Source: a virus
DNA: 64,000 nucleotides
Direction: 5' to 3' (one strand)
UHGV virus genome: UHGV-0218015
Below, piece by piece: positions 27,897-56,176 of the stretch. The position numbers and the translations under genes are program-made. Below the pieces are notes generated by a model that was not told the origin of the DNA, searched no databases, and was given only the letters and a program-made list of their open reading frames with translations. How positions within the stretch are numbered: the stretch's first letter is position 1; every line of letters begins with the position of its first letter.

Positions 27897-28090
27897 AAAT
27901 TTGGTTACCGATTCTAGTATTTATCCTTATCGCAGGGGCACTCGCAAGTGCTGAGTTAGACAACCGTACTTTAGAAACGAAACGTGAGTTGTATCAGGAC
28001 TGTATAAAGGATTATACTCCAGGTACAGAGCTTCATGCACAGGCTGTAAGAAGCTGTGCGTTGATGGCTGAAACGCAGACTCGTTCCTAA
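27893..28090 (+). CDS. small single-pass membrane protein (65 aa), paralog of previous gene
   Basis: TM segment IWLPILVFILIAGALASA; YQDCIKD...SCALMAE parallels YRECMSD...ACTEYA. Confidence 0.45.
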   Translation: MKIWLPILVFILIAGALASAELDNRTLETKRELYQDCIKDYTPGTELHAQAVRSCALMAETQTRS

Positions 28091-28464
28091 TGCGTATCTG
28101 GACGCTACAACTCGCTAAGTGGCGGTTAGCTAAGCAGAAAGGATTTCACGCGGTGGATATCACCGTGAAGTCAGGGCGAAAGGAACTCGCCCCCGACTGG
28201 GATTTCCTAATGGCGTATAAAAATTCTGCCCAAGACGCTGCCGCTGAGCGTGAATACACGATAAAGTATTTGTACAAACTCGAACGACTGTTAGATGCCG
28301 ATGCCGAAGTTTTAGTGTCGTTACTCAGACACGAAGACCTGGTTTTGATGTGTTATTGTCCTGCAGGTAAGTTTTGTCATCGTCACCTACTGGCGAACAA
28401 ACTTCAAGAAGTGGGAATGACGTTCGGTATCGATGTTGAGTTATGTGGAGAACTAACGGTCTGA
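28090..28464 (+). CDS. hypothetical protein (124 aa) with C-Y-C...C-H-R motif
   Basis: ORF coupled to upstream stop; MCYCPAGKFCHRHLL Cys/His cluster. Confidence 0.45.
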   Translation: MRIWTLQLAKWRLAKQKGFHAVDITVKSGRKELAPDWDFLMAYKNSAQDAAAEREYTIKYLYKLERLLDADAEVLVSLLRHEDLVLMCYCPAGKFCHRHLLANKLQEVGMTFGIDVELCGELTV

Positions 28465-28552: not shown

Positions 28553-29113
28553 GTGGCCACATACGTACCTGATTTAAGTCTGTCCTCAGCCGAATTGGTG
28601 GTCGCTTTAATCAACCACGATAACGGTTCACGGTTGTCTCTAAGCGAAATTCGTATTAGCAACACTATGGCAAACCTGTCCCCGACTACGTCGCGTCGTA
28701 ACACACTGACAGAGATTACAAAAATCAGGAAACCTGATGGTGCTTCTGTAGTTGTTTATTACGACCGCTTGGATGCGGACAAAGTGTTAGCGTCCGAACC
28801 TATTTTGATTTCGTTAGATGGTACCGAAGACAACCTTCGTGACATTTTAGGTGTTGTAAATGAATTCTGCGGAACGAACTTACAACCCGAGGATTTACAT
28901 GCTTCAGATATCACTTTAGGTAACGATCCTATTGCTGTCAACGTTGCTGACGATTCTCCAGCGTGGGTGAATGCGTTTATGGTGACGTTATTTGATAAAA
29001 CTGAACGGGCATTAGCAAACGAAGAAGATGCAATCTTCTGTATTGGTGACGATGCTGTTCTTACATTTGAGGTTCCAGATGGAGACTCCGCTGAAGAAAA
29101 CCCGGCTACATGA
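28553..29113 (+). CDS. tail-fibre-associated accessory protein (about 186 aa; GTG start after GGGAGG), paralog of 35204..35716
   Basis: VATYVPDLSLSSAELVVALINHDNG...VVYYDRL parallels MEKFTPDLSLTSLNMVISLVNHD...QIYYNRL; sits directly upstream of the fibre gene. Confidence 0.5.
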   Translation: MATYVPDLSLSSAELVVALINHDNGSRLSLSEIRISNTMANLSPTTSRRNTLTEITKIRKPDGASVVVYYDRLDADKVLASEPILISLDGTEDNLRDILGVVNEFCGTNLQPEDLHASDITLGNDPIAVNVADDSPAWVNAFMVTLFDKTERALANEEDAIFCIGDDAVLTFEVPDGDSAEENPAT

Positions 29114-29318
29114 ACTTGACGGTTTTTCTGGTAATGGAGGCCAAAGCAAACGTTTATCAAGACTTAGTAAACCCAGATCATGAGAACGCGGAGTTGGGCA
29201 TCACTTTCACGTTAGAAGATGATGGATTAAAACCAGTATAATAATCCGCTTATAAAAATGTTGGGGGAGGTGTTTTACCTTCCCAGATCTTTTAGCTCCA
29301 GATAGAGAATTAAATATC

Positions 29319-32300
29319 ATGGCTAAAGCGGTAAAGAAAATACGTTTACACGACTTACATCCGTACACCGGGGATATCGGTGAAGGCGTTTTACTTTTTT
29401 CGAAAGACGAAAAAGATTATAAGTTACCAGTCCGCGAGATCGTTGCGGACATTGACACCGTCAGAAGTGCGGTTGCTGATGCACAAACGGCTGCGGCCAA
29501 ATCACAACAGTCCGCAACAGAAGCTACGAAAGCTAAAGATTTAGCAGAAACAGCGAAGCAACAGACCACCACTTTAGCTTCCACAGTTAATGAGCAAGCG
29601 GGAACCGTCGCCACTAAAACTGCGGAGGTTAACAAAAAACACGCTGAAGTTTTAGCAGCGAAAACTGCCGTAGATACTGTTTCACAATCAGTAAATGAGA
29701 AGGCTCAAGCTGTCGCCGCAAGCGAACAATCTGTGACAGCTGTAGCGGCTGATGTAACTAAGAAAGCAGAAACGGTTACGCAACGGGCCGGACAGGTTCA
29801 ACAGACCGCTACCAGTATCGCAAATACTGCGGCTTCAATTGAGGCCAGTAAGGGCGCGGTGGAGAAGGTTGCTGCGCAGGTTACGAAAGATAAAGAAAGC
29901 TCAGAAGGCGCAGCTACACGCTCGGAGTCAGCCGCTCTGCGTGCGGAGAAAATCGCTGCACAGGGTTTAGTTGACGCTAGTACGACCGGTAAAGGTATCG
30001 TTAAACTTAACAATACCCTGACTAGCGAATCCGTGACGGAGGCTGCCACACCGTCCACGGTTAAACAGCTGAACGACGAATTACAGTTAAAAGCCGATAA
30101 ACATTCGCCGAATTTTACGGGTAACCCGACATCACCAACGCCTCCAAAGGACTCGAATGACACGAGCATCTCCACAACGGCCTGGGTGCGTGCTGCTATC
30201 GCGGAATTGGTTGGTTCTTCACCTGAGACGTTAGATACCTTAGCGGAATTAGCTACGGCGTTAGGTAATGACCCTAACTTCGCAACAACGATTACTGAGA
30301 AACTTGCACAGAAGCAACCTATCAGTCCACTACTTACTGCTATTGCCGCAGTCACAACCGCAGCAAACAAGCTCCCTTATTTCACTGGCACTAATAAAGT
30401 CGGGTTAACTGACTTTACAGAAACCGCCAGAACCTTGTTAGCAAAAGGGACAACTGCGGATATCATCAATTTCTTGGGATTAAAAGCCACTGTAGATAAA
30501 GCGAACTCTGCGTTACAGAAAAACTCTAACGGTGCTGATATCCCCAATAAAGAAACCTTTGCTCGCAATATTGGTCTATCTCCTGATACCTATCTGCGTT
30601 TCCGTGGTGAAATGCCCGCAGATGCTGATATTAACACATTTGCTCCAGATGCCAATTACACAGGAACATGGTCCAAGTCGACATCAACAAACGCATCGAT
30701 AGCAAAACACTTCCCGGAAGACGGTGCGGTAGGTTATCTAGAAGTGTATAAAGCGGGCAACTACAGTGGAGCGCAACGTTTTACCTGCCGTAATGGTAAC
30801 GTGTACAACCGCATGTTGTCAGCCGCGTGGAACGGAACTAATGGCCCGTGGTCACCGTGGAGAATGGTAACTACAGGTGTACGCCCGTTATCTACATCGA
30901 TCGATCTGAACTCCTTAGGCGGCGCTGAGCACATGGGTAACTGGCGTAACTCGTCCAGTTCGTTAGCGGTGTTCGACAGACATTATCCTGAAGAGGGCGG
31001 TAATGCGCAAGGCGTATTAGAAGTCATGGAAGGCGGTCTTTATGGACGTTTACAACGTTACACCACTCGTCGTGGTACGATGTATGTCCGTGGTTTGACT
31101 GCGACTTGGGATTCGTCTAATCCGCAGTGGGAAGATTGGATTCAGGTTGGGTATCAGGTAGACGGTGCCTACTATAAGGGTAGCTTTAACGACTTAACTA
31201 AACCGGGTCGCTTTAGTGTTACCGGCGAGGCTACAGACGGTCCGTTAACAGACTCTGCTGGCGCAACCTTGCTAGGCGTTTGCGAAGTTACCTTACGCTT
31301 AGACGGTTCAGGTGTTGAACAAAATTATACCACATACGGTACAGGCGCAACTTCGAAAGGTCGCAAGTTCCAACGAATTCGTACAGGAAATGCCTGGAGC
31401 GAATGGCGAGAGATTTTCACATCCTATTCACTCCCGTTGGCTTTAGGGATCGGTGGGGTTGCTGCTAAGGTAGATCCGTTAGACTGGCAAACCTTCGACT
31501 TCGTTCCTGGCCAGATGATAAGTACACCATTGAATACCATGAAAAACATTCCTGCGGGAATGGATTGGGGTGTTATCGACGGTAACTTGGTTACTATTCT
31601 TGTAGGGGCGTCGGAGGACACCGGTACTGGCCGGAGTATGTTGGTCTGGCGTGGTACAGTGTCTACTGCTAACTATCGCTTCTTTGCTGTTCGCGTCGCT
31701 GGTGAAAAGGGTAAACGTACTATTACTAGCCGCCAGATGCCCGTATTGAATGCAGCGCATACGTGGGCAGAAAAACAGACCTTTGCAAAAGGGTTATCAG
31801 GTGAGTTAACAGGCAATGCTGCTACGGCAACGAAACTGAAAACAGCCCGTTTAATCGGCGGTGTAAGTTTCGACGGTAGCGGAGACATTAGCCTCCCTGG
31901 TGTAAACCAACAGGGTAATCAAAACACCTCTGGGAACGCGGGAACCGCAACCAAATTACAAACGGCTCGAAACATCAACGGTGTGAAATTTGATGGGTCT
32001 AGAGACATCAATATCAACACGTTGGTAGGACGTGGACGTGTTACTGCACTGACTGGATCAAACAAAGGTACACCCGGTATTCAGATGTACGAAGTTTACA
32101 ATAACGGTTATCCAACCGCTTATGGTAACTTACTGCATTTGGGCGGTTCTGCTGCGCTAGGCGAAGGGGAACTGTTAATCGGATGGTCGGGGACGAGCGG
32201 TGCGCACGCACCCGTTTATATTCGTAGTCGACGTGATACTGCTGATGCGCCGTGGTCAGATTGGGCACAAGTTTATACTGCCCGTGATAGCATTCCTGGT

Positions 32301-33758
32301 GTAAATGCCACAGGTAATCAGGATACTACCGGCAACGCCGCTACCGCGACGAAACTGAAAACCGCTCGCAGGATCGGAGGCGTTAGCTTTGACGGTACAG
32401 GTGATATCAATTTACCGGGCGTTAACCAGCAAGGCAACCAGAATACGACAGGTAATGCAGCGACCGCTACTAAGTTACAAACCGCACGTAAGATCGGCGG
32501 TGTGGTGTTCGATGGGACAAAAGACGTTAATCTTCCTGGTGTAAACCAAACCGGTAACCAATCGACTACGGGGAATGCGGCGACAGCGACTAAGCTACAG
32601 ACTGCTCGAAATATAGGTGGCGTAGCTTTTGATGGTACTAAAGACATCAGTTTACCTGGAGTAAACCAAACAGGGAATCAGTCGACCACCGGAAACGCAG
32701 CCACGGCAACAAAGTTGCAAACCGCAAGAACCATCAATGGTATTGCGTTTGATGGCACTAGAAATATATCGTTAGGGCCAGCCGAAATAGGTTGTCCGGC
32801 ATCACCTAGTGGTTGGTTAGAAACTGGCGCTAATGGCGGTGCAATAACTACAGCACAGCTAGTGACGTTATTGAAAAATAACGGCGCATTTACCACAAGA
32901 TCGTGGGTTGCTCGCTGTGCGTGGGCTTATGCCGCCAGTGCGTCCATACCTCACAGCGAGACGGGTTGTGGTGTCATTCCGTTAGCTGGGGCCGTTATAG
33001 AAGTCATTAGTAACGGCAACAGCACAAACAACTACACGATCCGTATAACGACCGCCACAACGACGAGCGTCGGCGGAGCACTCACTAATGCGGAGTTTAT
33101 CTACGTATTTAACGGCGATGGATACTCACCAGGCTGGCGTCGTGCTTACAATACGAGAAACAAGCCAACTGCTGCGGAAGTGGGCGCGTTACCGTCAGGG
33201 GGCGGTACTGTAGGCGGTGATTTAACCGTTAATGGTAAATTGGCCACTAAATACCCTGATTTTCGAATCGCTTACGGTACCTACGGTTTTATTTTACGTA
33301 ACGACGGTGCCAATACCTATTTCTTAGTAACCGACGCCGGACAAGCCGCAGCGGGTTCCTGGAACGGATTACGCCCGTTGTCTTTTAATAATTCTAACGG
33401 CCAAGTAAACTTTGGACATAACGTTACTGGCAACGGTAACGGTTCGTTTAACGACGTACAGATTCGTTCTGACCGTCGTAACAAACGTAATCTGGTGAAG
33501 CTGGATAAAGCTTTGGATCGGTTAGAGTTACTAACCGGTTATTTGTACGAAATTCAGCATCCTGATGACGGTTGGCAGACTTCTGTAGGTCTAATTGCTC
33601 AGGACGCATTAGAAGCGTTACCTGAACTTGTGTCAGAGGACGACGATGCCATTTCAGGCGAAAAACGTTTACGTCTAAATTACAATGGCGTTATTGCGCT
33701 GTTAGTAGAGGGTATGAAGTCTCTTCGCCGAGAGCTTAAAGAACTCAAGGGGAATTAA
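29319..33758 (+). CDS. long tail fibre protein (1479 aa) with tandem fibre repeats and C-terminal intramolecular chaperone (peptidase S74) domain
   Basis: About six 38-aa repeats GNAATATKLxTAR-IGGV-FDG--DI-LPGVNQ-GNQ; C-terminal SDRRNKRNL...GLIAQDALEALPELV...LNYNGVIALLVEGMKSLRRELKELK matches the S74 autoproteolytic chaperone of endosialidase-type fibres. Confidence 0.85.
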   Translation: MAKAVKKIRLHDLHPYTGDIGEGVLLFSKDEKDYKLPVREIVADIDTVRSAVADAQTAAAKSQQSATEATKAKDLAETAKQQTTTLASTVNEQAGTVATKTAEVNKKHAEVLAAKTAVDTVSQSVNEKAQAVAASEQSVTAVAADVTKKAETVTQRAGQVQQTATSIANTAASIEASKGAVEKVAAQVTKDKESSEGAATRSESAALRAEKIAAQGLVDASTTGKGIVKLNNTLTSESVTEAATPSTVKQLNDELQLKADKHSPNFTGNPTSPTPPKDSNDTSISTTAWVRAAIAELVGSSPETLDTLAELATALGNDPNFATTITEKLAQKQPISPLLTAIAAVTTAANKLPYFTGTNKVGLTDFTETARTLLAKGTTADIINFLGLKATVDKANSALQKNSNGADIPNKETFARNIGLSPDTYLRFRGEMPADADINTFAPDANYTGTWSKSTSTNASIAKHFPEDGAVGYLEVYKAGNYSGAQRFTCRNGNVYNRMLSAAWNGTNGPWSPWRMVTTGVRPLSTSIDLNSLGGAEHMGNWRNSSSSLAVFDRHYPEEGGNAQGVLEVMEGGLYGRLQRYTTRRGTMYVRGLTATWDSSNPQWEDWIQVGYQVDGAYYKGSFNDLTKPGRFSVTGEATDGPLTDSAGATLLGVCEVTLRLDGSGVEQNYTTYGTGATSKGRKFQRIRTGNAWSEWREIFTSYSLPLALGIGGVAAKVDPLDWQTFDFVPGQMISTPLNTMKNIPAGMDWGVIDGNLVTILVGASEDTGTGRSMLVWRGTVSTANYRFFAVRVAGEKGKRTITSRQMPVLNAAHTWAEKQTFAKGLSGELTGNAATATKLKTARLIGGVSFDGSGDISLPGVNQQGNQNTSGNAGTATKLQTARNINGVKFDGSRDININTLVGRGRVTALTGSNKGTPGIQMYEVYNNGYPTAYGNLLHLGGSAALGEGELLIGWSGTSGAHAPVYIRSRRDTADAPWSDWAQVYTARDSIPGVNATGNQDTTGNAATATKLKTARRIGGVSFDGTGDINLPGVNQQGNQNTTGNAATATKLQTARKIGGVVFDGTKDVNLPGVNQTGNQSTTGNAATATKLQTARNIGGVAFDGTKDISLPGVNQTGNQSTTGNAATATKLQTARTINGIAFDGTRNISLGPAEIGCPASPSGWLETGANGGAITTAQLVTLLKNNGAFTTRSWVARCAWAYAASASIPHSETGCGVIPLAGAVIEVISNGNSTNNYTIRITTATTTSVGGALTNAEFIYVFNGDGYSPGWRRAYNTRNKPTAAEVGALPSGGGTVGGDLTVNGKLATKYPDFRIAYGTYGFILRNDGANTYFLVTDAGQAAAGSWNGLRPLSFNNSNGQVNFGHNVTGNGNGSFNDVQIRSDRRNKRNLVKLDKALDRLELLTGYLYEIQHPDDGWQTSVGLIAQDALEALPELVSEDDDAISGEKRLRLNYNGVIALLVEGMKSLRRELKELKGN
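31790..32770 (+). repeat. in-frame tandem coding repeats (about 114 nt units, about 6 copies) inside the tail fibre gene
   Basis: Repeated ACGAAACTGAAAAC/ACTAAGTTACAAACCGC... units encoding NAATATKLQTAR-GGV-FDG. Confidence 0.8.
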
Positions 33759-33799: not shown

Positions 33800-34345
33800 A
33801 TGGGGGTAGCATCCGGCTGGGTTGGAAGCTCAGCAAAGGCAGTAACCGGTCAGGAGTGGATGAGTGTGGCAGGTAATAAGCTTAAACTGAGCACGCCATT
33901 TAACATGTCGCAGATGGTCGGGCGTAGCGTAGAGGATCTTAAACTCGTTGTAGGCCGATCAACCTATGTTGTTTTGGTGCAGGCTACGAACACGCAGTGG
34001 GTTCCTATTACAAATACGTATGGGGGGTATTCGAACAACTCTACAACAACGGGTGCTGGTTCTACAGTATCGAATCGTGTGCAAACACAAAATGCGGCCG
34101 GTTCGGTGTCAGGTTCGATCTTGGGTTGTAGCGTCACACATCTTAGCCAAGTACAAAATACTGGTATTATCTACATGGCCCTAACCAATGGACCAAATCA
34201 GAATATTACGCTTTCGTTTAACGGAACGAAGATTACTTTTCTACCGTACTCCTACAGTAACGGCGTCCGGCGCTATGAGGCTAAGACGGCAACCAACTGG
34301 TTATTTAATCAGAACGGTGCAACAATTTCAATAAGTGTAGTCTAA
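33800..34345 (+). CDS. tail-fibre-module protein (181 aa), paralog of 34599..35105; possible distal adhesin
   Basis: N-terminus MGVASGWVGSSAKAVTGQEWMSVAGNKLKLSTPFNMSQMVGRS shared with the downstream paralog. Confidence 0.5.
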   Translation: MGVASGWVGSSAKAVTGQEWMSVAGNKLKLSTPFNMSQMVGRSVEDLKLVVGRSTYVVLVQATNTQWVPITNTYGGYSNNSTTTGAGSTVSNRVQTQNAAGSVSGSILGCSVTHLSQVQNTGIIYMALTNGPNQNITLSFNGTKITFLPYSYSNGVRRYEAKTATNWLFNQNGATISISVV

Positions 34346-34355: not shown

Positions 34356-34586
34356 ATGTTAAGAAAAGTTTTACTGGGTTTCGCATTGCTTACAGTAAGT
34401 GGATGTCAACAACTACCCGAACCTGTATGTTACGGCACAGCTAAGCTGGGTAATGAAGAGACTACGATCAATATTTTCGACGTAAAAAAGCAGGGCAGAT
34501 ACACACTTTATAAAGCTGATCATCATTATAATTGGCGTTGGGTTGGGCGTGGTGCTTTCGATTCAATAACATGTAGAAAATCTTAA
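34356..34586 (+). CDS. small lipoprotein (76 aa), candidate Llp-like superinfection-exclusion or receptor-blocking lipoprotein
   Basis: Signal peptide with lipobox LTVSGC (MLRKVLLGFALLTVSG-C); located inside the fibre module. Confidence 0.55.
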   Translation: MLRKVLLGFALLTVSGCQQLPEPVCYGTAKLGNEETTINIFDVKKQGRYTLYKADHHYNWRWVGRGAFDSITCRKS

Positions 34587-34598: not shown

Positions 34599-35105
34599 AT
34601 GGGGGGGGTAACCGGTTCGTGGGTCGGTTCTTCGGCCAAGAACGAAACGGGCGAACAATGGATGAGCGCTGCTGGTAGTAAATTAGGATTGGGTAGACCT
34701 TTTATGATGAGTCAAATGGTGGGACGATCTATGGGCTGTAAAATTGCAACCGCTGCATATAGCGATTCTTTAGGTAAGAAATGGGGCGCAGTAGGACCAA
34801 GCTGGCCGTTAAACCAGAAAAATCAGGGAACCATTCAAAACGCGGGTAACTGCGGGGTGGGAACTTTAGTAGGTATTGAGTTACAGTTAACGACGATAGT
34901 TGCCAACGCAAAGCCTACTTTAGCGGTTTACTTACAAGGAGGCAGAGCCTCTAACATTACCGTAAATTTAGGTGGTAACACCTGCGCGCTGGCCTATCAG
35001 CAGGTTATTAACGGACAGCATTATTACTGGACTAATAACATCAGCGCTGCGTTCCAAAACGTGATGAAATCGACAGGCGCACTGCGTGATTTGAGAATTA
35101 GCTAA
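34599..35105 (+). CDS. tail-fibre-module protein (168 aa), paralog of 33800..34345; start codon fused to a G8 tract
   Basis: MGGVTGSWVGSSAKNETGEQWMSAAGSKL...MSQMVGRS; ATG followed by GGGGGGG (34601-34608). Confidence 0.5.
   Translation: MGGVTGSWVGSSAKNETGEQWMSAAGSKLGLGRPFMMSQMVGRSMGCKIATAAYSDSLGKKWGAVGPSWPLNQKNQGTIQNAGNCGVGTLVGIELQLTTIVANAKPTLAVYLQGGRASNITVNLGGNTCALAYQQVINGQHYYWTNNISAAFQNVMKSTGALRDLRIS
34601..34608. repeat. G8 homopolymer inside the start of gene 34599
   Basis: ATGGGGGGGGTAACC read directly. Confidence 0.9.
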
Positions 35106-35139: not shown

Positions 35140-35149
35140 GGGGGGGGGG
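35140..35149. repeat. G10 homopolymer in the intergenic region upstream of gene 35204
   Basis: AATCGTGGGGGGGGGGTGAATG read directly. Confidence 0.9.
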
Positions 35150-35203: not shown

Positions 35204-35716
35204 GTGGAAAAATTCACACCAGATTTATCACTAACTTCACTTAACATGGTTATTTCACTGGTTAACCATGACCTCCAACTTGACTTGCAAGAGAACGAGG
35301 TTGAAGTCAGTGACGTAAAAACCAGTGATGAAATGGATCGTGACTCCACTGCCATTGTAAAGATTAAACGTCCTGGAAACAGAACGTTGCAAATCTACTA
35401 CAACCGTTTAACCGCAGAGCGGTGGTTAAACCAACAACCTATTCTGGTAAAAGTAAGAGGTGAAGGGTTTAATGCACACGATCTTATCGAATCCGTCAAT
35501 GCCGTTTGTGGTGCTAACTTACAAACCGACGATTTAACCGACCAGTCGTTCACGGTAGGTAAAGACGCGGTAACGCTTAGCATCGCTCCGAATTCCATCG
35601 CTTATAAAGGACAGTTCTCCGTGGTGGTTTTCGGCCCAGATGAAACACCGTGTGGCATCGGTGATGATTCTGTCGTGTTGACGTTTGACAATAAAATCTT
35701 AACTTTTGGAGAGTAG
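35204..35716 (+). CDS. tail-fibre-associated accessory protein (170 aa, GTG start), paralog of 28553..29113
   Basis: TAGGAGGTAAACATAC-GTG RBS; sequence parallels the 28553 gene; directly upstream of the tailspike gene. Confidence 0.5.
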   Translation: MEKFTPDLSLTSLNMVISLVNHDLQLDLQENEVEVSDVKTSDEMDRDSTAIVKIKRPGNRTLQIYYNRLTAERWLNQQPILVKVRGEGFNAHDLIESVNAVCGANLQTDDLTDQSFTVGKDAVTLSIAPNSIAYKGQFSVVVFGPDETPCGIGDDSVVLTFDNKILTFGE

Positions 35717-35719
35717 TAG

Positions 35720-37840
35720 ATGAGTCAGCCAATTGGAAAGAAACGTATCCATGAACTCGACAATTTCTCTGGCGATCTCAAAGGTGCGTTAGTTCTTCTT
35801 TCTAAGGAAGAAAAAGAATATAAAATTGATATTGCAAAACTTCAGGGCACGACGGAGCCGGAGTATTACTTCGTGATTCCTATAGCCGGGCAATCTAATG
35901 CGATGAGTTATGGTGAAGGGTTGCCTCTACCGGCGACGTTGGACGCTCCCGATCCGCGAATTAAACAGATGGCGCGCCGTGCGAAGGTAACGCCTAATGG
36001 GGCTGATTGTAAATATAACGACGTCATTCCAGCGGATCACTGTCTGCACGACGTGCAAGATATGTCCAAATACTCGCATCCCAATGCCAATTTGAGCAAA
36101 GGTGAATACGGATGTGTGGGTCAAGGTCTACATATCGCGAAGCGTCTTCTCCCGTATATTCCTAAGAACGCCGGTATCTTACTAGTACCCTGCGCACGCG
36201 GCGGTTCTGCTTTCACGGGTGGTGCAGAAGGTACCTTCGATGAAGCCACAGGAGCCACTGAGTCGTCAATGCTATGGGGGGTGGAGAAACCGCTTTATAA
36301 AGATTTAGTTAGCCGGACCAAAAAAGCTCTAGAAGTTAATCCTAAAAATAAACTCTTGGCTGTAGTGTGGATGCAGGGAGAGTATGATCTGACTAAAGTA
36401 CAATACGCACAACAACCAGCGTTATTTAACGCAATGGTAGAGCGTTTCCGAACTGATCTCTCTGACCATCTCTCTCAGATGCCCGAGTACGACACCGCCG
36501 AAGTACCATGGATCTGCGGGGACACTACCTATTATTGGAAGGAAAAATATCCTGCCCAATATGAAACCGTATACGGTAATTATCGTAACAATGAACAAAA
36601 AAATATCTTTTTTGTTCCATTCATGTACGACGATAATGGCCAACGTGTACCGACTAATGATCCCACTGACGATCCTGATATCACTGGTGCGGCCTATTAC
36701 GGTGCTGCCTCCCGTACTGTTAAAAACTGGACGTCTGAAACAAGGAATAGCCATTTCAGTTCTTGGGCACGACGCGGTATTATCTCAGAGAGAATAGCTG
36801 CCGAGATATTATCAAGAACAGCGATTGGTGCAATGTTCCTGACGAAGAACGACACTAAGAGCTCCAAAGACAATAAGAATGTGGTAAGAAGCTATACCCC
36901 ATTAGTAGAGTCTGTGGGTTATAACGGACGTCGTGGGGATGGTTCCCTGAAAGGGCAAGGTTGGAACAATATCGTTGATTGTAACGTAACCGTGCAAGAT
37001 TCTGAGGATGGAAACGGGCATTTCGTCGAATTAAGAAAGGCTGTAAAGATGAAACCTTGGAATGTAACTAAGTCAATGACATCTGCTGCGGACATGATAC
37101 GTTACGGTGGACGTCTGACCGTTACTTTTAGACTAAAAGGTGATTTAGCAGCAGATCGTTTCGGATTAGGACTTTATTGGCGTATTTCCGCGTCCGACCT
37201 ACCTTCTGGTACTACATTTGCTGACGCTGGTGTGGCTGAGACGAACCCGTACCTAATGTCTTTTTTCTTACAGACCGACGCTACGAATCTTAATCTGATG
37301 CATCATAAAAAGCAAAATGCGAAATTAGGAACTTTTGGTGCGTACGATAATAACTGGCATACGCTTGAAATCATTTATCCTGGTGCCAATAAAACCACAG
37401 TCACACCTGTGCTGGACGGTACGAATGGTACTCCATTTGATCTGGCGAACAGTCCAGCTAAGACCGATTTGAACGAATTGGTTCTGACGGATATTACGAA
37501 AGTTACTGCCTATGATATCGATATTTCTAAGTTTGAGATCTCGGTCAATCGTGATTCTGGTAGCATAGTGTTATCTGAGGAAGATGTGTCGTCTTATGTG
37601 TATTTCCCACCCACCAACCGTGGCGGCCAACTTACTATTCCTGATCTAGAATATAGTGTGGGCAGAAATATTCAGATCGTGGCAAATAAGGCTGGTAAGA
37701 TCACCGTTAAACCGGAAAATTCAAACGTTCTCATCACTCCAAAGAGTGGGACAGAAGGTCTTGCCAAACCCATTGATACCAATGAAAGTATTACGCTAAT
37801 GCAGATTGGTTCCGATGGTAAAAGCTGGGTAGTTATTTAA
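35720..37840 (+). CDS. tailspike/tail fibre (706 aa) with putative SASA/SGNH-type carbohydrate esterase domain
   Basis: N-terminus MSQPIGKKRIHELDNFSGDLKGALVLLSKEEKEYK parallels the 1479-aa fibre N-terminus; FVIPIAGQSNAMSYGEG resembles the GQSN(M) active-site motif of sialate O-acetylesterase-like esterases. Confidence 0.6.
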   Translation: MSQPIGKKRIHELDNFSGDLKGALVLLSKEEKEYKIDIAKLQGTTEPEYYFVIPIAGQSNAMSYGEGLPLPATLDAPDPRIKQMARRAKVTPNGADCKYNDVIPADHCLHDVQDMSKYSHPNANLSKGEYGCVGQGLHIAKRLLPYIPKNAGILLVPCARGGSAFTGGAEGTFDEATGATESSMLWGVEKPLYKDLVSRTKKALEVNPKNKLLAVVWMQGEYDLTKVQYAQQPALFNAMVERFRTDLSDHLSQMPEYDTAEVPWICGDTTYYWKEKYPAQYETVYGNYRNNEQKNIFFVPFMYDDNGQRVPTNDPTDDPDITGAAYYGAASRTVKNWTSETRNSHFSSWARRGIISERIAAEILSRTAIGAMFLTKNDTKSSKDNKNVVRSYTPLVESVGYNGRRGDGSLKGQGWNNIVDCNVTVQDSEDGNGHFVELRKAVKMKPWNVTKSMTSAADMIRYGGRLTVTFRLKGDLAADRFGLGLYWRISASDLPSGTTFADAGVAETNPYLMSFFLQTDATNLNLMHHKKQNAKLGTFGAYDNNWHTLEIIYPGANKTTVTPVLDGTNGTPFDLANSPAKTDLNELVLTDITKVTAYDIDISKFEISVNRDSGSIVLSEEDVSSYVYFPPTNRGGQLTIPDLEYSVGRNIQIVANKAGKITVKPENSNVLITPKSGTEGLAKPIDTNESITLMQIGSDGKSWVVI

Positions 37841-45508: not shown

Positions 45509-46357
45509 ATGTCTCTTACGTCAAAACAGAAACTGCTAAAACTCATCAACACTGAAAACAATATTGTTCCGCCATTGACCTTCAGTGATGTTGATATCGG
45601 CGAACCTACTGGTACTGGGGTTGATACCCAGGTGGTTCTGACTTCTAAACTCAAAGGCGATGAGTCTACTACTTTAACGGTGACTTACCATCGTCGTAAT
45701 TTGCCCGAATACCTAACAGGTGAGTTGGTATTCGGTAACGACGGTGTTGTAACCGCCTCAGATTTGCTTAACGCAATCAACGCAAAATACGATTTAAATA
45801 TTCTGCCATCGGATATCGTTGATGCGAAAGTTGAAGGTAAAACCCACCAACTTACCGCTAACGAGAAATCTTACGAGTGGTGTGGCGAAGTGACGCTTAC
45901 GCTACGCGATCCTATTGATCTGGCTAAATTGCTACCTGTTACTCAATTAGAAAACCTGGTAGAGTATCCGTCCACTAAGAAAGGTAACGCTGCGGTTTAT
46001 TCTTACCCAATTGACTTCACCGCAGAAAAAGATTACCTTGATCCAATTACCATCAACGGCACCGTAGACTTAGTAGAGTTAGCTACTAAACTGACTAACG
46101 TTGTTGATGAGAAATGGGTAAGCGTACCTAAGAACGCTGCTAATAACTTGTTCGGTGCTAAGGTTATCTACGATGGCCCTACCGCAGGTTTCGAAGGCGC
46201 AAATGCGAAGTACACGCGTGTGCTGGTACTCGCCCTAAGCGGTATGTGTTCTAACCTGACCGGTAAACTGTTAATTCACTTTAACGGAACCGATCGTCCG
46301 AAGTCGAAGATTGAATTAGCCAAGACTAATTCGGTCTTACCGGGATTCTTAGATTAA
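45509..46357 (+). CDS. member 1 of a four-gene paralog family (282 aa), unknown function, possibly virion-associated
   Basis: N-terminus SKQKLLKLINTEN...LTFSDVDIGEPTG parallels 46371, 49515 and 50113 products. Confidence 0.55.
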   Translation: MSLTSKQKLLKLINTENNIVPPLTFSDVDIGEPTGTGVDTQVVLTSKLKGDESTTLTVTYHRRNLPEYLTGELVFGNDGVVTASDLLNAINAKYDLNILPSDIVDAKVEGKTHQLTANEKSYEWCGEVTLTLRDPIDLAKLLPVTQLENLVEYPSTKKGNAAVYSYPIDFTAEKDYLDPITINGTVDLVELATKLTNVVDEKWVSVPKNAANNLFGAKVIYDGPTAGFEGANAKYTRVLVLALSGMCSNLTGKLLIHFNGTDRPKSKIELAKTNSVLPGFLD

Positions 46358-46370
46358 GAGGATTACAGTA

Positions 46371-46847
46371 ATGACCAGTCAAGAAACTATTTTCGACCTT
46401 ATTAAAAAGGCTAACCCAGACGCCGAGCTCGACACCGCCAAAGTCACATTGGGTGAGCCCGTCGTAAGTACCGGTACGTACAACACCGAAATTACGGTTG
46501 TGCCGGTTAAAAATCTCGGTTATGTTAATAAGCAAACGTTCCAGTATAACCGCATTGATGCAGGTTTGTATTTCCTCAACGTATTGCCGAAACTGTTAGT
46601 TGAGACAGCAACCACGACTGCGGACCTGCTGCCTGTAATTAACGAGCAGTATGGCTTAACCCTTACCGAAGACGATGTGTGGGTAGAGCAGGTTGGTGCG
46701 TTGCCGCTAGACGGCAGTGCAATCGAGCACGGTATTTTCTTCCGCCCCGAGTGTCTAACCTGGGTCGGTGGTTTTACAGTGCGTGTTGCGCGTAAACCGT
46801 CTGTCGAGACACCGCCAGCTAAGCCATCGCGCGCTAAGAAGAAATAA
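46371..46847 (+). CDS. member 2 of paralog family (158 aa)
   Basis: TIFDLIKKANPDAELDTAKVTLGEPVV parallels family N-termini; GAGGATTACAGTA-ATG. Confidence 0.55.
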   Translation: MTSQETIFDLIKKANPDAELDTAKVTLGEPVVSTGTYNTEITVVPVKNLGYVNKQTFQYNRIDAGLYFLNVLPKLLVETATTTADLLPVINEQYGLTLTEDDVWVEQVGALPLDGSAIEHGIFFRPECLTWVGGFTVRVARKPSVETPPAKPSRAKKK

Positions 46848-49514: not shown

Positions 49515-50045
49515 ATGGCTAAAACTTTTCAACAGCAGCTTATCGAACTTATTAACACTAAAAACAGCTCTCTGAGCTCCGCTCTCACCGTAGCTGATGT
49601 TGACTTTAGTGCTGTCGCTGACTTCACCGGAGAAGCTGGCCGCAACACTAAAATTACTCTGACCGCCAAGGCAGAAAGCCAGAACTTCAAAGGCGAGAAA
49701 GAATTCCACTATACTCGTCTTTCCTGCGACATCGTTGGTGAAGTTGAAGTAACTGCACCTACTACCGATTTCGATTCACCAACGAAAATCCTGGCAAAAG
49801 TTAACGCAGCCATGGCTGAGAAAGGGTACACCGATGACGAGTTCGGTGAAAACGACCTGCAAACTATTTCCCGTGAAGAAGAAGGCAAAACCATTTACGT
49901 AGTAACTGTTGTGGCTGGACACCTGAAGTTCCTGCCAGGTACTGTTGCAACGTATAAAGTTACTCCTCCGGCTATTGAGAAAGTAGTATTGAACGGTTTG
50001 GAAGGTGAACTGGATGGCTTCACCGCACCAGCGCCTAAAGAGTAA
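49515..50045 (+). CDS. member 3 of paralog family (176 aa)
   Basis: FQQQLIELINTKNSSLSSALTVADVDF...NTKITLTAKAESQNFKGEKEFHYTRL parallels 50113 product. Confidence 0.55.
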   Translation: MAKTFQQQLIELINTKNSSLSSALTVADVDFSAVADFTGEAGRNTKITLTAKAESQNFKGEKEFHYTRLSCDIVGEVEVTAPTTDFDSPTKILAKVNAAMAEKGYTDDEFGENDLQTISREEEGKTIYVVTVVAGHLKFLPGTVATYKVTPPAIEKVVLNGLEGELDGFTAPAPKE

Positions 50046-50052
50046 TTGATTC

Positions 50053-50090
50053 GGGGGGGGGTGGTAACCTCCCCCGATATTTCTTTAACT
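50053..50090 (+). terminator. terminator-like hairpin containing a G9 tract
   Basis: GGGGGGGGGTGGTAACCTCCCCC hairpin followed by GATATTTCTTTAACTTTCATTTT. Confidence 0.5.
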
Positions 50091-50112
50091 TTCATTTTAA
50101 GGATTTAAGATA

Positions 50113-50643
50113 ATGGCAGCTACTAACCAGATGATGTTAGTTGCGCTTTATAATGCTGCTAACACAGAGCTACCGCATCAGGTCACTGATAAAGAGGTAA
50201 CTTTTGGTCAACCTGTCGCTCTTGAAAAGGGCGATAAAAATACCAAAGTTACCATGACCGCACGTACAGAGTCTGAAAATTTTAAAGGCGCAATCGAACT
50301 GCATTACGATCGTCTGGAACCTGGCGTTATCGGACGCATTGAGGTAACGGACGATTTGGCTCTCTGGACTGGAGAAAACGAACTACGCGACCGATTACAG
50401 TTCTACATCAATAAAGTAAAACCTGACGACTCTATCGCGCCTGGTGACGTTGAGTACACCACCGAAGACCAGAAAGACGAACACGATAGCGTCACTCTGC
50501 GTACGGTAACTTGTACCGTTACTGAAAAGAACCTCCGTTATAAACCGGGTGTAATGGCAACTTTCGTAATTACGCCGAAAGTTGTTGATAATCGTATTGA
50601 CCTGGCCACCACCGACGGTGAACTTGACGGCTTTACTGCTTAA
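50113..50643 (+). CDS. member 4 of paralog family (176 aa)
   Basis: NQMMLVALYNAANTELPHQVTDKEVTF...NTKVTMTARTESENFKGAIELHYDRL. Confidence 0.55.
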   Translation: MAATNQMMLVALYNAANTELPHQVTDKEVTFGQPVALEKGDKNTKVTMTARTESENFKGAIELHYDRLEPGVIGRIEVTDDLALWTGENELRDRLQFYINKVKPDDSIAPGDVEYTTEDQKDEHDSVTLRTVTCTVTEKNLRYKPGVMATFVITPKVVDNRIDLATTDGELDGFTA

Positions 50644-51387: not shown

Positions 51388-51935
51388 TCATCTTCTCCTT
51401 TAACTAAACCTAGCTCAATTAACAATTCAAAATCGATTTGGCGAAATTTGTTATCAAAACCAGAATCCCAATCGATGTGTAATCCTTGTCGTTCTTCATC
51501 GGTAAGTTCAGGATAAATTAAATCATGGAACGCTTCACGTTCCTCGTAAAATCCATCGATAGTAGAATCTGGATTCCGCATTGCGTAAATCGTGATGCCC
51601 GGAAAGGATAATCCTAATGCTGTTATAGATTCGACGCTTGGTTCTTGCAAGGCCCTGCGTAATAGCACGATTTTATGTCGTGGAAAATCTAGTACACGTT
51701 GTTCAAACCCAGGATTCCGTTTCTCAATTTCTGTAACTGAAAGATCGGTGAGTTCTGTGCAATACATTGGGATAACTACAGTTACTCCGTGGCGAATTAA
51801 TAATCGTTTAACATCGTCAGTGAAGTCTTCACCATTAATTTGCACATAACAACCAAACAATTTTGTAGTTTCTAAAAATTTTTCCAGAAAACGGAATTTA
51901 CGCTTCGTAATATTGTGGATCAGAATTGGCTTCAT
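51363..51935 (-). CDS. hypothetical protein (190 aa) in rSAM/Cys-rich operon
   Basis: - strand ORF overlapping the SPASM rSAM gene end by 38 nt. Confidence 0.5.
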   Translation of the reverse strand: MKPILIHNITKRKFRFLEKFLETTKLFGCYVQINGEDFTDDVKRLLIRHGVTVVIPMYCTELTDLSVTEIEKRNPGFEQRVLDFPRHKIVLLRRALQEPSVESITALGLSFPGITIYAMRNPDSTIDGFYEEREAFHDLIYPELTDEERQGLHIDWDSGFDNKFRQIDFELLIELGLVKGEDECLLLTKA

Positions 51936-54142: not shown

Positions 54143-54149
54143 CTATTTT

Positions 54150-55037
54150 TTAAATATAGCCAATGGATAACAAAGGATCGTCGTAAGCGTTAACTCCAGG
54201 TTTTAATACAAACGGTGAATTGTAAGCCTCAATAATACGATTAAGGTCTTTATAACGCACGTTTAAACGTTCTAGATCCGCTAACGTTACGTTACGTTCC
54301 AATACCGCCGACACTGCCGCTTTTTCTTCATCAGTTAACGTGACTTTCGTCATTAAGAAACTAACAAGTTTCGCTAAATCTGCTTCCGATGACGGATGTT
54401 CACCAATACGTGTTTGAATTAAATGCTGCATCCATGGTTTACGAATACGTTTTGTGATTTCATGTTCATCTGTAAGGGCAACCCATACTGAACGTTCACG
54501 ATCCCACATAAATTTGTAACTGTACGCCATCAGATCTGCTAAACAGTTGATGCCAAGTTCCTCGTAACCTTCTATTTCAATATACGGTTCAGTATCAACA
54601 TAGTTTTTTGTTTCTACAGGAACCAGGGCATAAAAGTACGGGAATGAACCAAGATAGTCTGGAGACCACCAACGTCGTGCTACAGGCTTCGCATTCAACT
54701 CTTTAAATGGCGTAAAGAACAATTCCAAATCTACAGAATTATTCAGAATACCGTCACTAAAGAAATATTTACCGTCAACCAATTTACCGCGTAAATCTGA
54801 ATCACCGGTAAACACCACTACGCTTTCTGCTGTCAGATCGCGTATTTTAAAAGTGTTTTCTACTGAATAGTTATTGCGATCGGTAAAAAAACGACCACGC
54901 ACTTTGGGCCATTCGCCAGGTAACTGGGTTAACAAACGAACTTTATCTTCCAAATGAGCGCGTATTGAATCGGGGGAAGAAATATGAAGTGGGTGGTTGA
55001 AAATTGTTTTATAGGCTAAATGCAAATCGTTTTTCAT
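54150..55037 (-). CDS. hypothetical protein (295 aa) in rSAM/Cys-rich operon
   Basis: - strand ORF, 7 nt downstream gap to rSAM gene. Confidence 0.5.
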   Translation of the reverse strand: MKNDLHLAYKTIFNHPLHISSPDSIRAHLEDKVRLLTQLPGEWPKVRGRFFTDRNNYSVENTFKIRDLTAESVVVFTGDSDLRGKLVDGKYFFSDGILNNSVDLELFFTPFKELNAKPVARRWWSPDYLGSFPYFYALVPVETKNYVDTEPYIEIEGYEELGINCLADLMAYSYKFMWDRERSVWVALTDEHEITKRIRKPWMQHLIQTRIGEHPSSEADLAKLVSFLMTKVTLTDEEKAAVSAVLERNVTLADLERLNVRYKDLNRIIEAYNSPFVLKPGVNAYDDPLLSIGYI

Positions 55038-55049
55038 TGATTACTCCAA

Positions 55050-55716: not shown

Positions 55717-55719
55717 TTC

Positions 55720-56118: not shown

Positions 56119-56176
56119 TTTAATACCTACTGGTTTAGTGCCCCCTAGGACACATTATAATTCACTTTCTGTAAAA

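What the first reader, a model, noticed from the sequence alone, without database searches (positions are those of the whole stretch)
29319..33758. Tail fibre with tandem fibre repeats and an autoproteolytic C-terminal intramolecular chaperone domain
The 1479-aa protein carries about six 38-aa repeats (NAATATKLQTAR-IGGV-FDG...LPGVNQ-GNQ) encoded by tandem 114-nt units (31790..32770). Its last 100 aa (SDRRNKRNL...GLIAQDALEALPELV...LNYNGVIALLVEGMKSLRRELKELK) match the peptidase S74 chaperone found in endosialidases and L-shaped tail fibres, which cleaves itself off after trimerisation (expected cleavage near the S-D at about nt 33470). Repeat-number variation would alter fibre length.
Basis: partly seen in the sequence, partly recalled or inferred. 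Interest (0 to 1): 0.45.

Follow-up and report, generated by a model that had tools for sequence, protein, structure and literature searches.

The report
Jumbo-phage tail fibre with detachable chaperone

Summary
ORF 29319..33758 (+) encodes 1479 aa. It has six copies of a GNAATATKLxTARxIxGVxFDG motif and a C-terminal Peptidase_S74 chaperone (Pfam E 5e-10). The Ser1384/Lys1389 pair is conserved in all 121 relatives.

Three corrections:
- The repeat unit is 40 aa/120 nt, not 38 aa/114 nt.
- The array is split 2 + 4 by a 93-aa insert.
- Pfam's fibre repeat (PF03406) matches aa 221-260, not these repeats.

Relatives carry 4, 5 or 6 units. Genomes at least 98% identical differ by exactly one 120-nt unit.

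The main addition is that the tip motif GNGSFNDVQIR|SD matches T6 gp37. Two genes with the gp38 N-terminal docking domain follow, at 33800..34345 and 34599..35105, flanking a cor exclusion lipoprotein gene. The fibre is therefore best read as a T2/T6/S16 gp37-type shaft. Chaperone release would expose a dock for a monomeric adhesin. Cleavage and docking are inferred, not shown.

The second adhesin gene begins with a G8 tract that is G9 or G10 (frameshifted) in near-identical genomes. All long G/C tracts in the window vary in this way, so either real slippage or assembly error fits.

Verdict: an ordinary new member of a known kind, in an unusual host genome (an SPN3US/Asesino-related jumbo phage).

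The parts
29319..33758 (+). Tail-fibre gene, 1479 aa (155.9 kDa; predicted mature 145.0 kDa)
   Evidence: ORF; PHROG tail-fibre families; masses
29319..29453 (+). N-terminal anchor motif (aa 1-45), shared with the second fibre at 35720 and with a remnant ORF at 29079
   Evidence: BLASTP 39% identity over 36 aa, E 2e-9; a local HMM finds only these three places in the window
29454..29963 (+). Ala/Thr/Gln-rich stretch (aa 46-215), probably coiled coil
   Evidence: Only weak SMC/Rad50-type matches, far below cut-off; composition visible. The coiled-coil reading is an inference.
29973..30602 (+). P2 gpH-like segment (aa 219-428); contains the single Pfam Phage_fiber_2 unit at aa 221-260
   Evidence: tblastn about 48% identity to P2/Wphi gpH and 53.6% to the Goslar fibre; PF03406 E 2.8e-10
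30603..31811 (+). Unassigned globular region (aa 429-831), with three ~95-aa stretches ending in W-x-x-W
   Evidence: No Pfam or PDB match. The AF2 model failed at pLDDT 32. 83-97% conserved among relatives.
31812..32051 (+). Shaft repeat copies 1-2 (40 aa each; copy 2 is a half unit)
32052..32330 (+). 93-aa insert that splits the repeat array; weakly similar to the upstream W-x-x-W domains
   Evidence: BLASTP E 0.006 to aa ~551-610; 94-99% conserved among relatives
32331..32810 (+). Shaft repeat copies 3-6. This is the block whose copy number varies (2, 3 or 4) among relatives.
   Evidence: A 120-nt deletion placed at 32535 is seen in L001, L007, L021 and L023.
32805..33233 (+). Mu/P1 S-fibre-like domain (aa 1163-1305); the most variable part of the fibre among relatives
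   Evidence: PDB 8ju3_A, stretch E 2e-27; 53-60% mean identity to relatives at aa 1141-1260
33084..33383 (+). Gp34_trimer-type trimerisation domain (aa 1256-1355)
   Evidence: PF21446 E 5.6e-19; Foldseek hits T4 gp34 (4uxg) and Mu (5yvq)
33435..33467 (+). Tip strand GNGSFNDVQIR (aa 1373-1383): predicted last residues of the mature fibre and the adhesin dock
   Evidence: Aligns with T6 gp37 GNGSFSDVYIR|SD and Stx2 phage 86 gp21 GNGSFNDVQIR|SD. The role of the DVYIR-type strand is taken from PMC7917993.
33468..33755 (+). Peptidase_S74 intramolecular chaperone (aa 1384-1479; 96 aa, 10.9 kDa). Ser1384 is the predicted nucleophile and Lys1389 the base; the predicted scissile bond is Arg1383-Ser1384.
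   Evidence: mechanism from PMC4690869 and PMC7917993
33800..34345 (+). Tip adhesin 1 (181 aa): gp38 N-terminal docking domain plus an unassigned C-terminal domain
   Evidence: PF21721 E 2.4e-20; phrog_1121 'tail fiber adhesin' E 7e-53; aligns to S16 gp38 (6f45_D) residues 1-49; 69% identical to Stx2 phage 86 gp22
34356..34586 (+). Cor-type superinfection-exclusion lipoprotein gene (76 aa)
   Evidence: NCBIfam NF047972 at 69 bits against a cut-off of 31; phrog_1119; 61.5% identical to Stx2 phage 86 cor
34599..35105 (+). Tip adhesin 2 (168 aa): gp38 N-terminal docking domain plus a different C-terminal domain
   Evidence: PF21721 E 1.3e-18; phrog_1121 and phrog_33139
34601..34608 (+). G8 tract across codons 1-4 of adhesin 2. 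It is G9 or G10 (frameshift or immediate stop) in near-identical genomes.
28553..29113 (+). DUF7941 virion protein gene preceding the fibre (start taken from gene calls in relatives); paralogue of 35204..35716
   Evidence: PF25613; 34% identity between the two, E 4e-32; gene call in L001

Best explanation
The gene encodes the long tail fibre of an undescribed ~225-kb jumbo phage of Enterobacterales. The protein is a mosaic. It starts with a lineage-specific ~45-residue anchor and an Ala-rich rod, followed by a P2 gpH-like segment and unassigned globular domains. Then comes a shaft of 40-residue GNAATATKL units (2, then a globular insert, then 4), a variable Mu/P1 S-like domain and a gp34-type trimerisation domain. 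It ends in a 96-residue Peptidase_S74 intramolecular chaperone.

The inferred mechanism runs as follows. Three chains trimerise with the help of the chaperone. Once the beta-helix is correctly formed, Ser1384, activated by Lys1389, cuts the Arg1383-Ser1384 bond and the 10.9-kDa trimer of chaperone pieces leaves. This exposes a flat tip made of the ...DVQIR strands. As in T2, T6 and S16 gp37, one monomer of a gp38-type adhesin then docks there through its N-terminal helical bundle.

This phage encodes two alternative adhesins directly downstream. They share the docking domain but have different C-terminal domains, so fibres probably carry one or the other. The receptor is read by the adhesin, not by the fibre itself. 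Shaft length changes in steps of one 40-residue unit between relatives.

Shown here: the ORF, the repeats and their copy-number variation, family and fold membership, motif conservation, and gene order in relatives. Inferred: cleavage, docking, one adhesin per fibre, and the effect of repeat number on length.
For: Chaperone identity:
- PF13884 scores 39.9 bits against a cut-off of 22.
- S16 gp37 (PDB 6f45_A) aligns over aa 1346-1477, E 3.5e-12.
- An AF2 model of aa 1290-1479 has pLDDT about 90 in the chaperone half. It hits the MyRF ICA domain 7dc3 (TM 0.60 on target) and the endosialidase chaperone 3gw6 (probability 0.98).

Catalytic pair:
- S-D-x-R-x-K is present in 121 of 121 relatives. It is at least 90% conserved in a more diverse set that reaches down to about 33% identity.
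- The Ser-to-Lys spacing of +5 is the same as T5 pb1 Ser1264/Lys1269 (PMC4690869).

Cleavage site and dock:
- GNGSFNDVQIR|SDRRNK aligns with T6 gp37 GNGSFSDVYIR|SDSRLK.
- It also matches the published S16 and fPS sites DLNVS^SDRRIKK and DVYIR^SDGRLKI (PMC7917993). That paper assigns the DVYIR strand as the gp38 dock.

Adhesins:
- Both downstream ORFs match Gp38_N above cut-off.
- Adhesin 1 aligns to S16 gp38 residues 1-49.
- Both keep two of the three conserved Trp residues, W7 and W20.
- These are the only Gp38_N genes in the 64-kb window, and this is its only chaperone-bearing ORF.

Relatives:
- The same slot in L002 and L003 holds a classic 260-aa polyglycine GP38 (PF05268) plus a second short Gp38_N adhesin.
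- RefSeq annotates the homologous pair in E. coli 98232 as a tail fiber domain protein followed by a receptor-recognizing protein.
- The order tip+chaperone / adhesin / cor is the same in Stx2-converting phage 86 gp21-gp23, at 62-69% aa identity.

Repeat variation.
Against: - No protein-level data exist. Cleavage and docking rest on homology.
- The third docking Trp of S16 gp38 (W36) is Asn in adhesin 1 and Met in adhesin 2.
- The window's adhesins lack the polyglycine receptor-binding domain that defines classic gp38, and their C-terminal domains have no solved relative.
- The chaperone is short: 96 aa against 113 in S16 and 133 in T5.
- Only a monomer could be modelled, and the segment around the cleavage site has pLDDT below 50.
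- Nothing shows that both adhesins use this fibre. The rest of the ~225-kb genome, outside the window, was not examined for other chaperone-bearing fibres.
Confidence: 0.75

Rival explanations
1. The fibre is itself the terminal receptor-binding protein, as in T5 pb1 or the K1F endosialidase. On this view the chaperone simply leaves, and the two small downstream proteins are assembly factors or belong to another fibre.
For: - The region just before the tip (aa 1141-1260, Mu/P1 S-like) is the most variable part among relatives, as expected of a receptor-contacting domain.
- The window's adhesins lack the classic polyglycine domain and one of the three docking Trp residues.
Against: - The tip strand matches gp37 proteins that are known to be capped.
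- Gp38_N is specifically the docking domain (PMC6851490).
- Relatives put a classic GP38 in the same slot.
- No other chaperone-bearing fibre exists in the window.
Confidence: 0.12
2. The S74 domain is a degenerate remnant that is not cleaved and stays on the fibre.
For: It is shorter (96 aa) than characterised chaperones. The model is of low confidence at the junction.
Against: - The Ser/Lys pair and most core residues are at least 90% conserved across divergent homologues.
- The domain is the best-conserved part of the protein, at 95-98% identity. That argues for function.
Confidence: 0.05
3. The repeat-number differences among relatives are assembly artefacts (collapse or expansion of repeats), not real variation.
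For: Most relatives come from short-read metagenome assemblies.
Against: - Units share only 63-74% nt identity and exact runs of 15 nt or less, too little for assemblers to collapse them.
- Differences are always whole in-frame 40-aa units.
- The 5-unit form recurs in at least three separate assemblies (the contigs behind L001/L023, L007 and L021) that differ elsewhere by up to 1.7%.
Confidence: 0.05

Closest known systems
Distal long tail fibre of T2/T6/S16-type T-even phages (gp37 with a C-terminal chaperone, plus the gp38 adhesin; PDB 6F45)
   Same: - C-terminal S74 chaperone with an SD(R/S)RxK site.
- Near-identical tip strand: GNGSF-DV-IR.
- A gene with the Gp38_N docking domain directly downstream.
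- One GNAATATKL shaft unit also occurs in T6 gp37.
   Different: - The host genome is an SPN3US/Asesino-related jumbo phage, not a Straboviridae member.
- The fibre is a single 1479-aa protein with its own baseplate anchor, not a gp34-35-36-37 chain.
- There are two adhesin genes rather than one. In this window both are short (181 and 168 aa) and lack the polyglycine domain.
- The third docking Trp is replaced.
- The chaperone is 96 aa against 113 aa.
Stx2-converting phage 86 gp21-gp22-gp23 (tail fibre, tail fibre adhesin, Cor)
   Same: Same order of fibre tip+chaperone, 181-aa adhesin and cor. Identities are 69%, 69% and 62% at the protein level. DNA is 65% identical over 839 nt spanning the fibre 3' end and adhesin 1. 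The cleavage motif GNGSFNDVQIR|SD is identical.
   Different: - That fibre is 673 aa, with collagen-like repeats, on a 60-kb temperate lambdoid phage.
- It has no second adhesin and no 40-aa repeat array.
T5 pb1 L-shaped fibre and K1F endosialidase C-terminal intramolecular chaperone (PDB 4UW8, 3GW6)
   Same: Same Pfam family (PF13884). Same Ser...Lys(+5) pair. Cleavage of the bond before the Ser after trimer folding (PMC4690869). Fold match to 3gw6.
   Different: In those proteins the mature C-terminus is itself the receptor-binding or enzymatic tip, and no adhesin is added. Their chaperones are longer (133 aa in T5 pb1).
Tail fibre gp090 of jumbo coliphage Goslar, with its Caudo_TAP assembly protein gp089
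   Same: Same locus plan, a DUF7941-like virion protein followed by a long fibre, in a related jumbo phage. 53.6% identity over aa 248-430.
   Different: Goslar's fibre ends like P1 gpS and uses a separate Tfa/U-type chaperone. It has no S74 domain and no gp38-type adhesin.
P1 S / Mu S fibres and the P1-S-like fibre of Escherichia phage Cyrano
   Same: - 73.5% identity to Cyrano over aa 825-1378, including GNAATATKL units with the same 40-aa spacing.
- Mu/P1 S-like domain at aa 1163-1305.
   Different: In the C-terminal alignment Cyrano's fibre shows no SD-R-K site or S74-like C-terminus. P1 and Mu fibres are matured by a separate U/Tfa-type chaperone and switch tips by DNA inversion; that statement is from my own knowledge and was not tested here.

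Membership tests
Peptidase_S74 / C-terminal intramolecular chaperone domain | Profile match above Pfam's curated cut-off | tested here: met
   PF13884, 39.9 bits against 22, E 5.2e-10, aa 1384-1438
Peptidase_S74 / C-terminal intramolecular chaperone domain | Nucleophile Ser with a Lys five residues downstream, at the domain start | tested here: met
   S1384...K1389. Conserved in 121 of 121 close relatives and at least 90% in a diverse alignment. Same spacing as T5 Ser1264/Lys1269 (PMC4690869).
Peptidase_S74 / C-terminal intramolecular chaperone domain | Sits at the extreme C-terminus, after a trimeric beta-structured fibre or spike domain | tested here: met
   Last 96 residues, directly after a Gp34_trimer-type domain
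Peptidase_S74 / C-terminal intramolecular chaperone domain | Fold similar to solved chaperone domains | tested here: met
   The monomer AF2 model hits the MyRF ICA domain 7dc3 (E 3.7e-4, TM 0.60 on target) and 3gw6 (probability 0.98). Only a monomer was modelled.
Peptidase_S74 / C-terminal intramolecular chaperone domain | Autoproteolytic release after trimerisation | not testable with these tools
   Needs protein work: SDS-PAGE or mass spectrometry of virions, and an S1384A mutant
T2/T6/S16-type gp37-gp38 adhesin-capped fibre | gp37-like tip strand immediately before the cleavage site | tested here: met
   GNGSFNDVQIR|SD against T6 GNGSFSDVYIR|SD; fPS DVYIR^SD (PMC7917993)
T2/T6/S16-type gp37-gp38 adhesin-capped fibre | Adhesin gene with the Gp38_N attachment domain directly downstream of the fibre gene | tested here: met
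   PF21721 at 72.7 and 67.1 bits against 25 for 33800..34345 and 34599..35105. Same arrangement in relatives.
T2/T6/S16-type gp37-gp38 adhesin-capped fibre | Three conserved Trp residues in the attachment domain that fill three equivalent pockets on gp37 | tested here: inconclusive
   W7 and W20 are kept in both adhesins. The third (S16 W36) is Asn in adhesin 1 and Met in adhesin 2. The feature is described in PMC6851490.
T2/T6/S16-type gp37-gp38 adhesin-capped fibre | Polyglycine-rich receptor-binding domain in the adhesin (Pfam GP38, PF05268) | tested here: not met
   No PF05268 match for either window adhesin. It is present in the first adhesin of relatives L002 and L003. The window's adhesins are therefore gp38-like in docking only.
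T2/T6/S16-type gp37-gp38 adhesin-capped fibre | Physical 3:1 complex of the fibre tip with the adhesin | not testable with these tools
   No multimer modelling or experiment was available
Pfam Phage_fiber_2 (PF03406) tail fibre repeat | The 40-aa GNAATATKL units match the PF03406 profile | tested here: not met
   PF03406 matches once, at aa 221-260. The repeat block alone gives no Pfam family at E up to 10 apart from noise, and no PDB relative apart from designer repeat proteins.

The most novel reading that the evidence does not exclude
The G8 tract across codons 1-4 of the second adhesin gene (34601..34608) may be a slippage-prone ON/OFF switch. In G8 genomes the adhesin has its docking domain. 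In G9 or G10 genomes translation stops within 26 or 4 codons. A phage population would then be a mix of virions whose fibre tips carry adhesin 1 only or adhesins 1 and 2. That would be host-range bet-hedging, of the type described for poly-G tracts in Campylobacter phages, but here on an adhesin-capped fibre of an enterobacterial jumbo phage. Whole-unit changes in shaft repeats and swapping of adhesin cassettes would add slower layers of variation at the same locus.
Probability: 0.35. Interest if true: 0.65.

Novelty: new member of a known kind. Interest (0 to 1): 0.35.

Why it matters
The fibre itself is a textbook combination: modular shaft, S74 chaperone and gp38-type cap.

Its value is context. 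A T-even-style adhesin-capped tip, previously tied to Straboviridae and some lambdoid or SSU5-like phages, has been grafted onto the anchor of an SPN3US/Asesino-type jumbo phage. Among described relatives, Goslar uses a separate Tfa-type chaperone in this slot. The adhesin tblastn search returned few or no Salmonella or Erwinia phage records, which is where the window's described relatives sit.

The lineage is common in public data. About 120 near-full-length variants were found, with ~220-226-kb contigs in metagenomes and in Salmonella, E. coli, Shigella and Enterobacter assemblies.

The locus shows three separable kinds of host-range variation:
- shaft repeat number;
- a hypervariable S-like domain;
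- interchangeable adhesin cassettes.

That makes it a convenient natural series for fibre engineering, and for testing whether poly-G tracts act as switches in enterobacterial phages.

Tried and rejected
- Megablast of the fibre gene against 50,697 phage records found nothing. No known phage carries this gene as a whole, and tblastn shows only partial, mosaic matches, none covering 80% or more.
- The PDB sequence search of the repeat block gave only designer 'Cake' repeat proteins, a periodicity artefact. A profile of 31 relatives added nothing for aa 430-1110.
- AF2 on aa 425-830 with 31 close relatives gave pLDDT 32, which is unusable, so no fold search was run on it. The idea that these are pyocin-type 'knob' domains is only a recollection and remains untested. 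The 93-aa insert resembles them only weakly (E 0.006).
- Pattern scans for the adhesin-2 poly-G context in IMG/VR, JGI metagenomes and GTDB genomes found nothing. The lineage was reachable only through exact-protein look-ups.
- I considered that the poly-G variation is specific to the adhesin gene and rejected it. All four G/C runs of 8 or more in the window vary among relatives, so the tract is not uniquely variable and assembly error cannot be excluded.
- I looked for a link between cor and a FhuA-binding adhesin in PMC10373560. The paper has no mention of cor, so the receptor remains unknown.
- A BLASTP self-comparison listed no off-diagonal hits. The repeats were located by motif search instead.

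Full report
**1. The observation**

The window has an ATG-started ORF at 29319..33758 (+) of 1479 aa. A motif search finds GNA[AG]TATKL at aa 832, 872, 1005, 1045, 1085 and 1125, which is nt 31812, 31932, 32331, 32451, 32571 and 32691.

The period, however, is exactly 40 aa/120 nt, not 38 aa/114 nt. Tandem Repeats Finder also reports period 120, and only for 2.3 copies at 72% matches. The array is interrupted: two copies, a 93-aa insert (32052..32330), then four copies. Copies 1, 3, 4 and 5 are full units (GNAATATKLxTARxIGGVxFDGxxDxxLPGVNQxGNQxTx). Copies 2 and 6 share only the first ~26 residues and lead into globular domains.

Full units are 75-90% identical as protein but only 63-74% as DNA, with no exact shared run longer than 15 nt. 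These are old, selectively maintained protein repeats, not a recent DNA duplication.

SDRRNK begins at aa 1384 (nt 33468). The C-terminal piece is 96 aa and 10.9 kDa.

**2. What the protein is**

PHROG tail-fibre families match with E down to 1e-287. Pfam gives three domains above cut-off:
- Phage_fiber_2 at aa 221-260;
- Gp34_trimer at aa 1256-1355;
- Peptidase_S74 at aa 1384-1438 (39.9 bits against 22).

It matches a different, single place. The repeat block alone has no Pfam family and no solved relative.

The same unit does occur once in T6 gp37, and five times in the P1-S-like fibre of phage Cyrano, three of them in a run at the same 40-aa spacing. It is therefore a known, widely shared shaft element without a curated model.

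No phage record carries the gene as a whole. Protein-level matches are partial and come from different phages:
- P1 S (aa 245-1370, 51% of the query covered);
- Cyrano (aa 825-1378, 73.5% identity);
- T6/PST gp34-gp37 (aa 382-1477);
- P2 gpH and Goslar (aa 219-430);
- PDB 8ju3 S/S' fibre (aa 1163-1305);
- T4 gp34 and Mu S (aa 1293-1374).

The gene is about 50% G+C against 44% for the window. It is a typical mosaic fibre.

**3. The chaperone**

Beyond the Pfam match, S16 gp37 (PDB 6f45_A) aligns across aa 1346-1477 (E 3.5e-12).

I built an alignment of 50 sequences reaching down to about 33% identity. In it Ser1384, Asp1385, Arg1387, Lys1389 and most of the core are at least 90% conserved. All 121 close relatives keep S-D-x-R-x-K, with 96-97 residues from that Ser to the C-terminus.

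An AF2 monomer model of aa 1290-1479 has pLDDT about 90 over the chaperone half. By Foldseek it matches T4 gp34 and Mu S for the first half. For the second half it matches the MyRF ICA domain (7dc3, TM 0.60 on target) and the endosialidase chaperone 3gw6 (probability 0.98).

In T5 pb1 the Thr1263-Ser1264 bond is cut, with Ser1264 activated by Lys1269 (PMC4690869). In S16 the cut is DLNVS^SDRRIKK (PMC7917993). By alignment, the bond here is Arg1383-Ser1384, at nt 33467|33468.

Family membership is well supported. Cleavage itself is inferred.

**4.

The residues before the cut, GNGSFNDVQIR, are almost the same as in T6 gp37, GNGSFSDVYIR. PMC7917993 describes this DVYIR-type strand as the flat triangular tip on which gp38 docks once the chaperone has left.

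Directly downstream lie two ORFs, 33800..34345 (181 aa) and 34599..35105 (168 aa). Both match Pfam Gp38_N, the adhesin's attachment domain, at 72.7 and 67.1 bits against a cut-off of 25, and PHROG 'tail fiber adhesin'. Adhesin 1 aligns with S16 gp38 residues 1-49.

Of the three Trp 'prongs' described for S16 gp38 (PMC6851490), W7 and W20 are kept in both adhesins. The third is Asn in adhesin 1 and Met in adhesin 2. Neither adhesin has the polyglycine domain (PF05268).

The two adhesins share only the first ~45 residues, at 67% identity. A local HMM scan shows these are the only Gp38_N genes in the 64-kb window, and this fibre is its only chaperone-bearing ORF.

**5. Relatives confirm the plan**

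A database search returned 120 near-full-length homologues at 77-97% identity (two of them with 72% best-alignment coverage). Many lie on contigs of 220-226 kb. Some are named from Salmonella, E. coli and Shigella assemblies.

In three fetched loci the fibre is followed either by the same adhesin / 76-aa ORF (cor) / adhesin set (L001), or by a classic 260-aa polyglycine GP38 plus a short Gp38_N adhesin (L002, L003). RefSeq annotates the pair in a 221,873-bp circular 'plasmid' of E. coli 98232 as a tail fiber domain-containing protein followed by a receptor-recognizing protein.

The order tip+chaperone / 181-aa adhesin / cor is also found in Stx2-converting phage 86 (gp21-gp23), at 69%, 69% and 62% protein identity. 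The distal module has evidently moved as a cassette between very different phages.

The related jumbo phage Goslar has the same DUF7941-plus-fibre plan. Its fibre, however, ends like P1 gpS and has a separate Caudo_TAP assembly protein. The window as a whole is about 73% identical in DNA to parts of Erwinia phage Asesino and Salmonella phage SPN3US. The adhesin search listed few or no Salmonella or Erwinia phage records. The module therefore appears absent from the described relatives.

**6. Variation**

Among the 120 relatives plus the query, total repeat number is 4, 5 or 6. The first pair of copies is constant (one relative shows only 4 motif hits, lacking the first spacing) and the second block has 2, 3 or 4 units. 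P0001, at 97% identity, lacks exactly unit 5.

I aligned 18 loci that are 98.3-100% identical to the window. Very few indels appear:
- one clean 120-nt difference, placed at 32535, in four loci;
- length changes in two poly-G tracts;
- three isolated 1-nt changes.

Its effect on fibre length is a reasonable inference that I could not quantify.

The least conserved part of the fibre is aa ~1141-1260, the S-like domain, at 53-60% identity. The chaperone is the most conserved, at 95-98%.

**7. Poly-G tracts**

Adhesin 2 begins ATG followed by seven more G, a run of eight. Exact-protein look-ups found the full 168-aa product on 21 contigs. A 124-aa call from an internal Met, which lacks the docking domain, is indexed in 89 blocks.

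The tract is G8 in the window and ten loci, G9 in seven and G10 in one. The G10 locus is otherwise 100% identical to the window over 6.4 kb. G9 stops translation after 26 codons and G10 after 4.

A G10 tract at 35140 ranges from G9 to G13. The other two long G/C runs in the window, G9 at 50053 and C9 at 55514, also vary.

The variation is therefore a general property of long G/C runs in this lineage, or of its assemblies, and is not special to the adhesin. Real slippage would make the second adhesin phase-variable, as reported for Campylobacter phages (Sorensen et al. 2021, Cell Rep 35:109214, listed in the references of PMC10877375). Read-level data are needed to decide.

**8. Verdict**

The thing itself is ordinary: a new member of the class of chaperone-bearing mosaic tail fibres.

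The better model is the adhesin-capped gp37 of T2, T6 and S16, not T5 pb1 or the endosialidases.

The features of some interest lie around the gene rather than in it:
- two alternative tip adhesins;
- a cor gene in a jumbo phage;
- cassette exchange with lambdoid prophages;
- possibly slippage-controlled adhesin expression.

Noticed in passing
window 34601..34608 (start of adhesin 2, 34599..35105): A G8 tract spans codons 1-4. Near-identical genomes have G9 (seven loci) or G10 (one locus), which truncates the adhesin before its docking domain. The truncated 124-aa call is indexed more often (89 blocks) than the full 168-aa product (21 contigs).
   Followed up: yes
window 35140..35149, 50053..50061, 55514..55522: The other three G/C runs of 8 or more in the window also vary among near-identical genomes: G9-G13, G9-G10 and C9-C10. 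About 0.6 such runs would be expected by chance in 64 kb (my own estimate from the base composition); four are seen. The C9 run lies near the 5' end of a 172-aa ORF (55050..55568, minus strand), which is called as only 77 aa in two relatives; one of them carries C10, and the tract context was not found in the other.
   Followed up: partly
window 34356..34586: A Cor-type exclusion lipoprotein gene (NCBIfam equivalog, 69 bits) sits between the two adhesin genes of a jumbo phage. The adhesin-plus-cor pair is shared with Stx2-converting phage 86. This hints that adhesin 1 targets the receptor that Cor blocks (FhuA in phi80/N15, from my own knowledge), but nothing here tests that.
   Followed up: partly
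window 29079..29183: A 34-codon remnant ORF (METPLKKTRLHELDGFSGNGG...) carries the first ~19 residues of the fibre anchor motif. In relative L002 an intact 153-aa anchor protein and a 1001-aa tail protein occupy this position. A third fibre module has apparently been deleted here.
   Followed up: partly
window 35204..37840: A second module with the same plan: a DUF7941 protein (35204..35716), then a 706-aa fibre with the shared N-terminal anchor, a SASA-type carbohydrate esterase domain and DUF6645. It is probably an O-antigen or capsule deacetylating fibre. In relative L021 it is split by a G6-to-G7 change at 36276.
   Followed up: partly
window 45509..46847 and 49515..50643: Four more DUF7941 paralogues (282, 158, 176 and 176 aa) lie around an endolysin-like gene (Glyco_hydro_108 plus PG_binding_3). 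The Pfam labels come from gene calls on relatives. The family is heavily expanded in this phage.
   Followed up: no
window 51898..57091 (minus strand): Three radical-SAM genes (440, 312 and 304 aa) lie with small ORFs of unknown function, including the one carrying the C9 tract. This could be a peptide- or nucleotide-modification cluster.
   Followed up: no
H66 NZ_CP173450.1 (L024); H72 NZ_CP134650.1; contigs: Relatives of this jumbo phage are deposited as circular ~222-kb 'plasmids' of E. coli 98232 (urine) and Enterobacter ludwigii, and as ~220-kb contigs in Salmonella and Shigella isolate assemblies. This suggests a carrier state or plasmid-like persistence in cultured isolates.
   Followed up: partly
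L022 (position equivalent to window 32014): One relative has a 1-nt deletion inside repeat copy 2 that splits the fibre gene into 902-aa and 557-aa ORFs. It is either a defective variant or an assembly error.
   Followed up: no
window 28090..28464: A DUF488-N3a family gene lies two genes upstream of the fibre and is conserved in all relatives fetched. Its function is unknown.
   Followed up: no
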